Virus record (IMG/VR): IMGVR_UViG_2671180890_000005
Span: 1-51,026 of that record
Reading direction: 5' to 3' (one strand)
DNA from: a virus
Lineage: Duplodnaviria; Heunggongvirae; Uroviricota; Caudoviricetes
DNA length: 51,026 nt
The position numbers were made by a program. Positions 43,501 through 46,500 of this stretch are shown here, in pieces. The number at the start of each line of letters is the position of its first letter. Position 1 is the stretch's first letter.

Positions 43501-46500
43501 AAGGACGATTGGCGCAACTGCGACTCTTGGCGTATCAATGGGGCTTGAGGCTGGTTTCGGTGCAATGATGCGCTTGTATGAGTCCAAAGCAGCAAGGAAT
43601 GCTCTCTTACGTCTGGCAAACACTAAAGCTGGAACGCCAGCCTATGAAAGAGCGCTGAATAACGCTGCGAATGCCATCAGGCCGCTGCTTGCCACTGAGG
43701 CAACACAGCAGTAACGTATGGGAAATTGGATTCAATCGCTAACATTTTCTTTTTACTTTTCCAACAAAAGCTTTGGTTGAATCCATATTTCCATAACCGG
43801 AAATGGTTTTTGACATTAAAACTGTTCCAGTAGGATGTATTACCCATGAGTCGATAACGCGTTGAGTTTCGCCATTCGCGCCGATTCCTATGATGGAGTT
43901 TTTAGACAATACTTTGTAAGCCATGCCGCCCGCATCTGTCCCAGAATATGTGATGCTAGCATCTTCACCGCTTGTCTTAATGATGAATGTTCCACTAAAA
44001 CCATCTTCTTCCGGATGGAAATTATTTCGTTCTGAATAGCTTATTCCGCGCATATCTCCAACGACCCAGCACTCTGCTGTAGCCCCAAAAGATATGAATA
44101 AGAACATAGCAGCAAGAAATTGCTTCACACCAACCTCCTTAGTTTTGTGCAGGATACCAGATGATAATGTGTAGTTGGAGTAGCGCGGTTGTAATGCAAG
44201 CATTTTGTTTTGGTTTTATGCTTGCTTGTATGTGTGTACAGTGCATATAATGCAAGCATACATCACAACAAAGGTGCTTGCATTATGACTGAAAAGAAAA
44301 GTGGCGAAGGGAAAGCTAAGGGCGGGATCGCTCGCGCAAAGTCGCTGACTAAAGAGCAGCGTTCTGAAATAGCAAAGAAAGCAGCTGCTGCAAGATGGAA
44401 AAGTAAGATTCTCAGGGCAACTCATCGTGGTAACTTTTTAGATGATTTTGGCATTGATGCTGAATGTTATGTACTGGATGACGAGTCGAAAACTGTCGTT
44501 GTTACGAAAACTGGATTATCTCAGTTGCTAGGGATTGGTGAACATGCCAGGGATTTAGATCAACTGCTTGGCGCTCAGTATATGAGCAAATACCGAGATC
44601 TAGAATTGCAGCGAAAAATGGAAAATCCCTATAAATTTCAACTTACTTCGAAGTCTAAAACCGTTCATCAAGCGTTAGGTTATGACATTACAGCAATTGT
44701 TGATATTGGTAGGGCACTAATAGAAGCCAAAGATAATGACGATCTACCACAATCACGGTTAAAGGCAGCCGCCGCAGCACAGAGACTTATTAATGCCTCC
44801 GCTAAGGCGGGAATTAAGGGGGTTGCGTATGCGCTTGCTGGTTATCGTCCAGAAGTTCAGGCTGTCATTGACGAGTTCAAAGCGTTTGTTCGTGAAGAGG
44901 CTCGTCAATATGAAAAGGAATTTCCAGATGAGCTATACGAGGAGTGGTATCGACTGTACGGCCTGAATAGGCCAGAGAAAGGACGGCCTATTCGTTTTGG
45001 GCAGCTAACCAACATGCAGATATACACCCCGCTAGCAAAGAGTAAAGGTAAAATCCTTGAACAAATTAGAGCCAGCCGAGACGAGAACGGAAAACAATCT
45101 GATAAGTTGCATCTGTTCCTTTCTGAAATTGGTGTCAAGGCTTTGCGTCAGCATATCGGTAAGCTTCTTGGTGTCGCAGCGATGAGTGAGACAAGAGAAG
45201 AATACGAAAAAGGAATAGAAAAGGTTTTCGGAAGAATGAAACCAGAAATCTAATTATGAAACCCACCGTCAGGTGGGTTTTTTGTACAAATCCTTCAGCG
45301 TATCAAACACCATCTTCTTAACAAGTTCAGACTGCTCATCAGCGATGCGTTCCGCATCGTCTCGATAGCCTGAAATTTTGGATGGCTTTGATACAGCATC
45401 AGTCACTATCTGAACTAATTCTGAATTAAGAGAGCGGCCATTGGATTTGGCTCGCTGTTTTAGTTTTTCCTTTAATTCGTAAGGTAGCCGCAGATTAAAT
45501 TGCGGGTCATCTCTTCCCATTCTTGATGCCTCACTTTTGTAAGTGGATCGGCATCATATGATCTACTGGTTATATCCACAATAAGACCACTGTGGTCTCA
45601 ATGACGCATTGCCGTAGCCATGCTGCGGTGATTCCTTGTATCTGGAGCAAATTAAATGACAGACATTACAGCCAATGTGATCGTATCAATGCCATCGCAA
45701 CTCTTCACTATGGCGCGTTCTTTTAAAGCCGTAGCCAATGGCAAAATTTATATCGGTAAAATTGACACTGACCCTGTAAATCCTGAAAACCAGATTCAGG
45801 TTTATGTGGAGAACGAAGACGGCTCTCACGCTCCTGTTTCGCAACCAATAATCATTAACGCTGCTGGATATCCGGTATATAACGGACAGATTGCCAAATT
45901 CGTTACCGTGCAAGGCCATTCTATGGCTGTTTATGATGCGTATGGTGCACAGCAGTTCTATTTTCCCAATGTGCTGAAGTATGACCCTGATCAACTACGG
46001 CAGCAATTAGAAGACCCAGATGGAGCGAATAAATACCCAAAACTTCAGATAGCAAGATGGAGAGACAGTTATGATGTAAGAGGTTGGGGGGCTATTGGTG
46101 ATGGTGTTCATGATGATACATCAGCTCTATCAGAATTACTTTCTGTTGCAACAGGTGGTGAAAAGATAGATGGGCGAGGGCTTACTTTTAAAGTATCAAC
46201 TCTTCCAGATGTCAGTCGATTTAAAAATGCTCGTTTTTTATTTGAGAGAATACCGGGTCAGCCTCTTTTTTATGCTTCTGAAGATTTTATCCAGGGAGAG
46301 TTATTTAAAATTACAGATACACCGTGGTACAACGCCTGGACGCAGGATAAAACGTTTGTATATGACAATGTCATCTATGCGCCTTTTATGGCTGGAGACC
46401 GCCATGGTGTAAATAACCTCCATGTTGCATGGGTTCGCTCAGGAGATGACGGGAAGACCTGGACAACGCCGGAATGGCTTACAGATTTACATGAAAACTA

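What the first reader, a model, noticed from the sequence alone, without database searches (positions are those of the whole stretch)
45269..45655. Orphan Mnt repressor with an operator-like palindrome directly in front of the tailspike gene
Mnt is present but arc and ant are missing. The perfect palindrome AGACCACTGTGGTCT sits in the 135-bp gap between mnt and the tailspike start, so the ant-type promoter may now drive the tailspike, and possibly neuO behind it, under Mnt control.
Basis: partly seen in the sequence, partly recalled or inferred. Interest (0 to 1): 0.45.

Follow-up and report, generated by a model that had tools for sequence, protein, structure and literature searches.

The report
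Stand-alone Mnt repressor with its operator
The palindrome in front of the tailspike gene is the genuine binding site of the neighbouring Mnt repressor, a natural variant with changed DNA specificity, but the promoter it once controlled has decayed, so the tailspike is most likely made as an ordinary late gene.

Summary
A 135-bp gap follows. The perfect palindrome AGACCAC-T-GTGGTCT is at 45584-45598, and the window has no P22-type arc or ant.

The palindrome is the core of a 19-bp homologue of the P22 Mnt operator, at the same distance from the old Pant -10 as in P22. Operator type and Mnt DNA-reading strand co-vary without exception. Gln6 Mnt (this window, 68 stand-alone loci, 6 complete mnt-arc-ant modules) pairs with AAGACCAC. 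His6 Mnt (P22 type) pairs with AGGTCCAC.

The Pant homologue is degenerate (TCGGCA-17-TATATC, 4.2 bits against 16.8 in P22, below random background) and varies freely among relatives. The leftward mnt promoter is kept in all 68 loci. The tailspike is the last + strand gene downstream of a Q antiterminator gene and the lysis genes, so late read-through is the likelier source. neuO has its own promoter-like site and is phase-OFF here (32 repeats).

Stand-alone mnt is not a dead remnant: dN/dS is about 0.1. Its role is inferred. The leading idea is silencing of antirepressor promoters on incoming phages that carry the same operator.

The mnt-only arrangement is already published (ST64T, L). Interest is low to moderate.

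The parts
45269..45520 (-). mnt: 83-aa ribbon-helix-helix repressor with the Mnt C-terminal tetramerisation domain. It is a Gln6 specificity variant (MGRDDPQFNLRLP against P22 MARDDPHFNFRMP).
   Evidence: Pfam Arc plus Repressor_Mnt; 1mnt and 1qey; 76% identical to P22 Mnt; dN/dS about 0.1 among stand-alone alleles.
45258..45281 (.). Bidirectional intrinsic terminator shared by the convergent P63C-domain gene (+) and mnt (-). Late-operon transcripts must read through it to reach the tailspike.
   Evidence: Stem-loop of -16.2 kcal/mol (+) and -14.2 kcal/mol (-), z about -3.9, with a run of six U on the + strand. Terminators are annotated on both strands at the same place in phage L, and one in epsilon34.
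45553..45581 (-). Homologue of the mnt promoter Pmnt: -35 TTGTGG (45581-45576), 17-bp spacer, -10 TATGAT (45558-45553). The predicted start is near 45546.
   Evidence: Best sigma-70 score in the gap (10.7 bits, about the 90th percentile of random tiles). Retained in all 68 stand-alone loci (10.7-11.8 bits). Same position as annotated P22 Pmnt.
45548..45576 (+). Decayed homologue of the antirepressor promoter Pant: TCGGCA-17-TATATC.
   Evidence: 4.2 bits against 16.8 for P22 Pant and 7.7 for the random-tile median. The -10 varies among relatives (TGCATC in 49 loci over three -35 variants, TGTATC in 6). The consensus scan found no site here.
45582..45600 (.). Mnt operator homologue TAAGACCAC-T-GTGGTCTCA. 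The perfect palindrome core is 45584-45598 and the centre is 45591.
   Evidence: Unique in the window. The centre lies 15 bp from the old Pant -10, as in P22. It co-varies with Mnt residue 6. The core GACCACnGTGGTC is intact in 62 of 68 stand-alone loci, with all four bases seen at the centre.
45608..45632 (+). Conserved stem-loop in the tailspike mRNA leader (AUUGCCGUAGC-CAU-GCUGCGGUGAU). Function unknown.
   Evidence: Folds on the + strand only. In 22 distinct leaders 92.9% of cells are paired and 3 pairs change on both sides. No Rfam match.
45644..45658 (+). Tailspike ribosome-binding site GGAG (45644-45647) and start codon (45656-45658).
   Evidence: Read directly from the sequence. Invariant in the leader alignment.
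45656..48601 (+). Tailspike: P22-type head-binding domain fused to a K1 endosialidase. Last + strand gene downstream of the Q antiterminator and lysis genes.
   Evidence: Pfam Head_binding, End_N_terminal, End_beta_propel, End_tail_spike and Peptidase_S74. Q-family antiterminator at 26368-26856 and holin at 27340-27663 on the same strand.

Best explanation
The window is a CUS-3-like, P22-type prophage. The segment is the left half of an immunity-I module: mnt, its leftward promoter and the Mnt operator. The right half (arc, sar, ant) is absent.

The palindrome is the core of the cognate operator of this Mnt. This Mnt is a natural specificity variant. Gln replaces His at position 6 of the DNA-reading beta-strand, and the operator half-site reads AAGACCAC instead of AGGTCCAC. 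An Mnt tetramer made in the lysogen from Pmnt is expected to occupy the site, which spans about -36 to -54 relative to the predicted mnt start.

The rightward antirepressor promoter that this operator blocks in P22 has decayed here. Mnt therefore does not gate a real tailspike promoter. The tailspike is most likely transcribed as the last late gene, by Q-modified RNA polymerase that reads through the terminator at 45258-45281 and across the gap. neuO is expressed separately.

Stand-alone mnt is kept by selection. The most likely reason (inferred, about 0.3) is action in trans: it would silence the antirepressor promoter of incoming phages that carry the same operator class, which protects the resident prophage from induction. 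Silencing of residual rightward transcription and a direct effect on its own promoter remain possible.

Shown: homology, geometry, covariation, promoter decay, purifying selection. Inferred: binding, the transcription pattern and the biological role.
For: Identity of Mnt.

Operator homology and geometry: in P22 the sequence runs TATATT-ctcaa-TAGGTCCACgGTGGACCTG, and here TATATC-cacaa-TAAGACCACtGTGGTCTCA. In both, the centre is 15 bp from the -10.

Covariation:
- All 68 Gln6 stand-alone loci carry TAAGACCACnGTGGTC or a one-base variant of it.
- The 17 loci with the P22-type strand MARDDPHFNFRMPM all carry TAGGTCCACnGTGGACC together with arc and ant.
- Four loci with a His6 ...RMPL strand have a different sequence in place of the promoter-operator region, so they are uninformative.
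- Six viral contigs with three unrelated Mnt C-terminal halves share the strand MARDDPQFNLRM. They share the identical operator CAATAAGACCACGGTGGTCTCAT, a strong Pant, and arc; ant was matched in five of the six.
- Further classes exist: Val6 with ACCCCACgGTGGGGT, SREDPQFRIRLP with CCCCACgGTGGGG, and DEAQFHLRLP with GTACCAtttnGGTAC.
- In E. coli TW05614 the 3' half of this mnt is fused to a His6 5' half plus the GGTCCAC operator, arc and ant. Strand and operator therefore move together.

Promoters: Pmnt is retained and Pant has decayed.

Selection on mnt: dN/dS is 0.10 with dS up to 0.59. Nine distinct coding sequences encode one identical protein in 38 loci.

Late-operon setting: Q antiterminator and holin lie upstream on the same strand. 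Villafane et al. 2008 describe PLate read-through of this region into the P22 tailspike gene (PMC2629481).

neuO: own promoter-like site; 32 repeats, so phase OFF (PMC3046976).
Against: - No binding or transcript data exist for this Mnt.
- The promoter scores come from a crude weight matrix built from remembered consensus frequencies. A 4/6 + 4/6 promoter with a 17-bp spacer can still fire weakly.
- If Pant is dead, the need for an intact operator next to Pmnt is unexplained. From my own recollection of Vershon et al. 1987, Mnt stimulates P22 Pmnt only indirectly, by shutting off Pant.
- Six of 68 loci have a mutated operator core and two have a premature stop in mnt. More distant stand-alone copies (Symbiopectobacterium, Providencia) keep only the left half-site. 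Constraint on the operator in the stand-alone state is therefore not strict.
- The low intergenic divergence between the window and ST160 (9/135, against a dS of 0.48 in mnt) cannot be read as constraint, because the region is mosaic.
- The trans-immunity idea rests on six metagenomic contigs. Only one type could be placed, next to an enterobacterial phage (SPN3UB-like, 82% identity).
Confidence: 0.6

Rival explanations
1. The remnant of Pant, or another rightward promoter overlapping the operator, is the working promoter of the tailspike (and perhaps neuO). Mnt keeps it off in the lysogen, so loss of Mnt would switch on endosialidase.
For: - The operator sits exactly where it blocks Pant in P22.
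- No terminator was found between operator and tailspike. The P22 ant terminator is absent.
- The window has the best-preserved Pant homologue of the family (TCGGCA-17-TATATC).
- From my own recollection of Berget et al. 1983, Pant transcripts can reach gene 9 in P22.
- Villafane et al. 2008 already suggested that Mnt and Arc may influence tailspike level.
Against: - The Pant homologue scores below random background and lacks the -7 T.
- Its -10 is not conserved. It is TGCATC in 49 of 68 loci, which also lacks the -11 A. The promoter has therefore not been under selection, while the tailspike must be made in all these phages.
- A Q antiterminator and the late genes lie upstream on the same strand.
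- neuO has its own promoter-like site. It is phase-variably active in lysogens (PMC3046976), and its transcript level depends on DsdC (PMC9659370).
Confidence: 0.2
2. A decaying remnant. mnt and its operator are leftovers of a lost immunity-I region with no present function, conserved only because the loss was recent.
For: [quoted passage not shown]
- Pant has decayed.
- Some loci carry stop codons in mnt or mutated operators.
- Distant stand-alone copies have lost the right half-site.
Against: - dN/dS is about 0.1 over a dS of up to 0.59 between stand-alone alleles from E. coli and Salmonella that share the same junction after the operator.
- 38 loci encode an identical protein from 9 different coding sequences.
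- Pmnt is retained in 68 of 68 loci and the operator core in 62 of 68.
- Three different specificity classes occur in the stand-alone arrangement in front of a tailspike gene.
Confidence: 0.12
3. Roadblock or dosage control. Mnt bound at the operator hinders RNA polymerase coming from the left (late-operon read-through, or leakage past the terminator in the lysogen). It would tune or silence tailspike expression without any local promoter.
For: - The operator lies between the terminator at 45258-45281 and the tailspike.
- Villafane et al. 2008 note that the ant region affects how often PLate polymerases reach the tailspike gene, and that Mnt and Arc may take part.
- A conserved leader hairpin just downstream could add pausing.
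Against: - There is no direct evidence.
- Antiterminated polymerases usually pass protein roadblocks (my own knowledge).
- The strong terminator already limits leakage in the lysogen.
Confidence: 0.08

Closest known systems
Phage P22 immunity-I region: Mnt repressor, its operator Omnt, and the divergent promoters Pmnt and Pant
   Same: Same two-domain protein, 76% identical. The operator has the same CCAC-n-GTGG core, abuts the Pmnt -35, and its centre is 15 bp from the Pant -10. The gene is oriented divergently from the tailspike side.
   Different: No arc, sar or ant. Pant has decayed. The beta-strand carries Gln6, Leu9 and Leu11 instead of His6, Phe9 and Met11. The half-site is AAGACCAC instead of AGGTCCAC. 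The operator is followed directly by the tailspike leader.
'mnt-only' ant morons of Salmonella phages ST64T, ST104, L, ST160 and SE1
   Same: Same arrangement (mnt, 135-bp gap, tailspike), same Gln6 strand, and an almost identical gap sequence (8-9 differences in 135 bp) including the operator and the junction after it. The arrangement is described in PMC2629481 and PMC8022706.
   Different: The host is E. coli K1, the tailspike carries an endosialidase, and the neighbouring moron genes differ (P63C-domain gene instead of orf62). The held papers do not analyse the operator, its specificity class or selection on mnt.
Complete Gln6-class immunity-I modules on uncultured viral contigs (L087, L294-L298; one type is SPN3UB-like)
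   Same: Identical beta-strand residues (RDDPQFNLR) and the identical 22-bp operator CAATAAGACCACGGTGGTCTCA.
   Different: They keep a strong Pant (TTGACA-17-CATTAT, 12.7 bits) and arc, with ant matched in five of the six. Their Mnt C-terminal halves are unrelated to the P22 tetramerisation domain.
P22 Arc repressor
   Same: The DNA-reading strand PQFNLR of this Mnt is identical to that of Arc. The fold is the same.
   Different: This protein has the Mnt C-terminal tetramerisation domain. Its site has Mnt-type symmetry and spacing, not the Arc operator ATGATAGAAGCACTCTACTAT. Whether it can read Arc-type TAGA boxes was not tested.

Membership tests
Mnt repressor (ribbon-helix-helix, Arc/MetJ superfamily) | N-terminal ribbon-helix-helix DNA-binding domain | tested here: met
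   Pfam PF03869, 2.8e-22, residues 3-50; 1mnt, 2.8e-34.
Mnt repressor (ribbon-helix-helix, Arc/MetJ superfamily) | C-terminal coiled-coil tetramerisation domain | tested here: met
   Pfam PF11423, 2.2e-18, residues 53-80; 1qey, 3.1e-12.
Mnt repressor (ribbon-helix-helix, Arc/MetJ superfamily) | Palindromic operator with a CCAC-n-GTGG core next to its own divergent promoter | tested here: met
   45582-45600, same offset as in P22; covariation with the beta-strand.
Mnt repressor (ribbon-helix-helix, Arc/MetJ superfamily) | Specific binding of the protein to that operator | not testable with these tools
   Needs a gel shift or footprint. Only covariation supports it.
Complete immunity-I region (mnt-arc-sar-ant) | arc gene downstream of the operator | tested here: not met
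   tblastn with P22 Arc gives only the cross-match on mnt. The gap holds no ORF of that kind.
Complete immunity-I region (mnt-arc-sar-ant) | ant antirepressor gene | tested here: not met
   No tblastn match to P22 Ant in the whole window. The neighbouring P63C-domain gene is not a P22 Ant homologue.
Complete immunity-I region (mnt-arc-sar-ant) | Strong rightward promoter Pant overlapped by the Mnt operator | tested here: not met
   4.2 bits against 16.8 in P22, and not conserved in relatives.
Complete immunity-I region (mnt-arc-sar-ant) | sar antisense RNA | tested here: not met
   A permissive Rfam search of 45150-45750 gave only terminator-like chance matches. The arc-ant junction region where sar lies in P22 is absent.
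P22-type late operon ending in the tailspike gene | Q-type antiterminator, lysis and virion genes on the same strand upstream, with the tailspike last, beyond the 'ant moron' | tested here: met
   Phage_antitermQ at 26368-26856 and holin at 27340-27663; ejection-protein-like ORF at 41873-43714 and tailspike at 45656-48601, all on the + strand. The antiterminator is not a P22 gp23 homologue.
P22-type late operon ending in the tailspike gene | Tailspike mRNA actually arises by antiterminated read-through | not testable with these tools
   Needs transcript mapping after induction, with and without Q.

The most novel reading that the evidence does not exclude
A stand-alone Mnt is a prophage-encoded 'anti-antirepressor' shield. 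Having lost its own antirepressor, the prophage keeps Mnt to silence in trans the antirepressor promoter of superinfecting phages that carry the same operator class (AAGACCAC). This would prevent them from inducing it. The several Mnt-operator specificity classes would then reflect an arms race between antirepressor-bearing phages and resident prophages.
Probability: 0.25. Interest if true: 0.55.

Novelty: new member of a known kind. Interest (0 to 1): 0.3.

Why it matters
The value here is mainly clarification. Genome papers have listed a 'mnt-like gene of unclear function' in ST64T, L, CUS-3 and many prophages. About a fifth of complete E. coli genomes match some part of this 2-kb neighbourhood.

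The analysis shows three things. The gene is a selected, intact repressor. Its operator is recognisable. The pair forms a natural specificity class, Gln6 with AAGACCAC, distinct from the textbook His6 with AGGTCCAC. That gives a ready-made natural counterpart to the classic Mnt and Arc specificity-swap experiments. It also gives a testable idea for why a repressor outlives the gene it controlled.

For K1 E. coli, the analysis argues against a repressor switch on the endosialidase tailspike or on neuO.

Tried and rejected
91 of the 120 stretches had no mnt and were unrelated, often high-GC contigs, which I read as chance matches. It became useful only after an arc-like start was added to the pattern.
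2. The genome-contig scan returned few close relatives. It served for specificity classes, not for prevalence.
3. I looked for the Gln6 class with arc and ant in cultured phages and in E. coli genomes. The E. coli loci read in detail (FREC5, TW05614) carry other classes (TAGTAC-type, or the P22 His6 type). PSJ-07 and PEC422 carry the same annotated Mnt and Arc proteins as TW05614. SPN3UB itself has a different operator.
4. I tried to show constraint on the gap from its low divergence (9/135) against mnt dS of 0.48. I rejected this as proof, because Gally has an identical mnt with a different gap type, which shows separate histories.
5. A comparison of the operator core with its flanks between gap types A and B gives no fixed difference in 15 positions, against about 2 expected. 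That is not significant, and singletons are if anything more frequent in the core (by eye from the alignment).
6. Rfam found nothing for the leader hairpin.
7. tblastn with P22 gp23 found no homologue. The antiterminator belongs to the Q family instead.
8. The classic Mnt papers (Vershon 1987, Knight and Sauer 1989 and 1992, Youderian 1983, Berget 1983, King 2007) are not in the held library. Statements from them are my own recollection.
9. A chance palindrome was rejected on homology and covariation, although palindromes of this size are not enriched in the window.
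Full report
**Observation.** The sequence is as described. An 83-codon ORF on the minus strand (45269-45520) matches the Pfam Arc domain and the Mnt C-terminal domain. It also matches the solved Mnt structures 1mnt and 1qey, and it is 76% identical to P22 Mnt. The next plus-strand gene starts at 45656 and encodes a tailspike with a P22-type head-binding domain fused to a K1 endosialidase. The gap is 135 bp. AGACCACTGTGGTCT is at 45584-45598 and is unique in the window even with three mismatches allowed. No P22 Arc or Ant homologue is encoded anywhere in the 51 kb. Perfect palindromes of this size are not enriched in the window: 4 observed against 6.3 in shuffles, or about 0.01 expected per 135 bp. 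The case for function therefore rests on homology and covariation, not on symmetry alone.

**Setting.** The window is a CUS-3-like P22-type prophage. Its plus-strand genes include a Q-family antiterminator (26368-26856), a holin (27340-27663), an ejection-protein-like ORF (41873-43714) and the tailspike. After the tailspike come neuO with AAGACTC repeats and an integrase gene on the minus strand. Between the ejection gene and the tailspike lies the variable region that Villafane et al. 2008 call the 'ant moron' (PMC2629481). Here it holds a 154-codon ORF (-), a P63C-domain gene (+, 44285-45253) and mnt (-). The last two genes converge on a bidirectional terminator at 45258-45281.

**The palindrome is the Mnt operator.** In P22 (BK000583) the annotated Mnt operator follows the Pant -10: TATATT-ctcaa-TAGGTCCACgGTGGACCTG. 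It abuts the -35 of the leftward mnt promoter. The window reads TATATC-cacaa-TAAGACCACtGTGGTCTCA. The distance from the -10 to the operator centre is 15 bp in both, and the CCAC-n-GTGG core is the same. The half-sites differ at two positions: G to A at -7 and T to A at -5. The Mnt DNA-reading strand differs too, MGRDDPQFNLRLP against MARDDPHFNFRMP, so His6 becomes Gln. The resulting strand PQFNLR is identical to that of P22 Arc.

**Covariation.**
- Among 86 loci from IMG/VR and phage records, every Gln6 Mnt (68 loci) pairs with TAAGACCACnGTGGTC or a one-base variant of it.
- The 17 loci with the P22-type strand MARDDPHFNFRMPM all pair with TAGGTCCACnGTGGACC together with arc and ant. Four loci with a His6 ...RMPL strand have a different sequence in place of the promoter-operator region and are uninformative.
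- The centre base of the Gln6 operator takes all four values while the flanking core stays fixed.
- Six further viral contigs carry complete mnt-arc modules, with ant matched in five of the six. Their Mnt proteins share only the N-terminal domain (57-67% identity over about 45 residues), including the strand RDDPQFNLR. There are three unrelated C-terminal halves. All six have the identical 22-bp operator CAATAAGACCACGGTGGTCTCA.
- Other classes follow the same logic: Val6 with ACCCCACgGTGGGGT, SREDPQFRIRLP with CCCCACgGTGGGG, and the Sf101/VSe13 type DEAQFHLRLP with GTACCAtttnGGTAC.
- In E. coli O111:H8 TW05614 the 3' half of this very mnt is joined to a His6 5' half, the GGTCCAC operator, arc and ant. 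The DNA-binding strand and the operator therefore travel as a unit.
- I regard the assignment of 45582-45600 as the cognate operator as well supported (about 0.85-0.9), although binding itself is untested.

**Promoters.** A simple weight-matrix scan, built from consensus frequencies I recalled, gives P22 Pant 16.8 bits and P22 Pmnt 14.4 bits. In the window the best site in the gap is the Pmnt homologue on the minus strand (TTGTGG-17-TATGAT, 10.7 bits), about the 90th percentile of random 170-bp tiles. The Pant homologue (TCGGCA-17-TATATC) scores 4.2 bits, below the random-tile median of 7.7, and it lacks the -7 T. The tool's consensus scan finds no promoter in the gap. Across the 68 stand-alone loci, Pmnt is retained in all of them (10.7-11.8 bits). 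The Pant -10 drifts (TGCATC in 49 loci, TGTATC in 6, TATATC in 11) and its scores run from -6.7 to 4.2. The complete Gln6 modules keep a strong Pant (12.7 bits). So Pant decays once arc and ant are gone. This argues against the idea that it was recruited to drive the tailspike.

**How the tailspike and neuO are probably expressed.** The tailspike is the last plus-strand gene downstream of the Q antiterminator and the lysis genes. [quoted passage not shown] Here such transcripts must pass the terminator at 45258-45281. This step is inferred by analogy.
- neuO has its own promoter-like site with 10 of 12 matches plus TG (48710-48738).
- It carries 32 heptanucleotide repeats.
- Full-length translation needs a multiple of three (PMC3046976), so this copy is phase-OFF.
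- Published work places a promoter region upstream of neuO and shows DsdC-dependent transcript levels (PMC9659370).

**Is the stand-alone mnt alive?** Yes, in most copies.
- Pairwise dN/dS among 23 distinct intact Gln6 stand-alone alleles is 0.10, with dS up to 0.59.
- Window against ST160 gives dN 0.048 and dS 0.48. These two share the same junction after the operator, so the divergence happened in the stand-alone state.
- Thirty-eight loci encode an identical protein from nine different coding sequences.
- Decay does occur. Two loci have a premature stop. A few carry radical changes in invariant residues. Six of 68 have a mutated operator core. Distant stand-alone copies in Symbiopectobacterium and Providencia keep only the left half-site.

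**What Mnt does here.** This part is inferred. The site spans about -36 to -54 relative to the predicted mnt start. From my recollection of Vershon et al. 1987, Mnt stimulates Pmnt in P22 only indirectly, by shutting off Pant. That role disappears once Pant is dead. The explanation I favour (about 0.3) is action in trans. Complete modules of the same operator class exist on other phages, one of them close to the enterobacterial siphovirus SPN3UB (82% identity). A resident Gln6 Mnt would silence their antirepressor promoter on entry and so protect the prophage from induction.

**Comparison with the literature.** The mnt-only arrangement is published for ST64T, ST104 and a Paratyphi prophage (PMC2629481) and for phage L. 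[quoted passage not shown] Villafane et al. also suggested that Mnt and Arc may influence the tailspike level. In the held library I found no description of the operator of these stand-alone genes, of the Gln6/AAGACCAC class, or of selection on the gene. The classic Mnt papers and the CUS-3 genome paper are not held, so I cannot exclude earlier remarks there.

**Verdict.** The finding is a further member of a known repressor-operator family in an arrangement that is already described. The modest new content is a natural specificity class, evidence of purifying selection, and a testable trans-immunity idea. Interest is 0.3.

Noticed in passing
window 45608-45632 (+); also L005 (P22) 2969-2985 and a degenerate copy at 2849-2866: There is a conserved stem-loop (core CCGUAGC-CAU-GCUGCGG) about 25 nt upstream of the tailspike start in most P22-like phages. 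92.9% of cells are paired in 22 distinct leaders and 3 pairs change on both sides. Many U-G wobbles pair only on the + strand. There is no Rfam match. Its function is unknown; candidates are a pause or weak terminator, or a processing or stability element.
   Followed up: partly
window 48755-49629 (repeats 48760-48983; promoter-like site 48710-48738): neuO carries 32 AAGACTC repeats, which is not a multiple of three, so this copy is phase-OFF. An extended -10 promoter-like site lies just upstream, and the scan found no intrinsic terminator between the tailspike and neuO.
   Followed up: partly
window 44285-45253 (+) and 43739-44203 (-): A P63C-domain gene (PHROG 2384, function unknown) converges on mnt and shares its terminator. 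A divergent 154-codon ORF (PHROG 2651, unknown) lies upstream. The epsilon34 paper refers to 'putative antirepressor genes' without arc in the CUS-3 moron. No Mnt-type operator lies in front of the P63C-domain gene.
   Followed up: partly
L290 (E. coli O111:H8 TW05614) 1870-2210 against window 45269-45600: There is a recombination joint inside mnt. The 3' half is like the window's, while the 5' half, operator, arc and ant are P22-type. Conversely, phage Gally has an mnt identical to the window's but a different gap type. Module boundaries therefore fall at the mnt start codon, inside mnt, and directly after the operator.
   Followed up: partly
L065 and L070 (IMG/VR contigs), mnt codon 53: Two prophage-like contigs carry a premature stop in mnt (GY*DD) together with changes in the DNA-reading strand. 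One has a mutated operator core and the other a change just outside it. This is coupled decay of repressor and site.
   Followed up: no
L035, L052, L053, L055, L061, L065, L070 (IMG/VR): In these loci the tailspike head-binding match starts about 425 bp from mnt instead of about 140 bp. An ATGACAGATATTAT... start still sits at the usual place, so an extra short ORF or an altered N-terminus precedes the head-binding domain.
   Followed up: no
L071-L074 (IMG/VR): Here a His6-type mnt has had its upstream promoter-operator region replaced right after the ribosome-binding site. An ant homologue lies 1.8-2.4 kb away, and there is no arc and no recognisable operator. This is a third arrangement of the region.
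   Followed up: no
window 26368-26856: The late antiterminator belongs to the Q family (PF06530) and is not a P22 gp23 homologue, although the region upstream of the holin gene resembles P22 (70% identity over 179 bp at 27169-27344).
   Followed up: no
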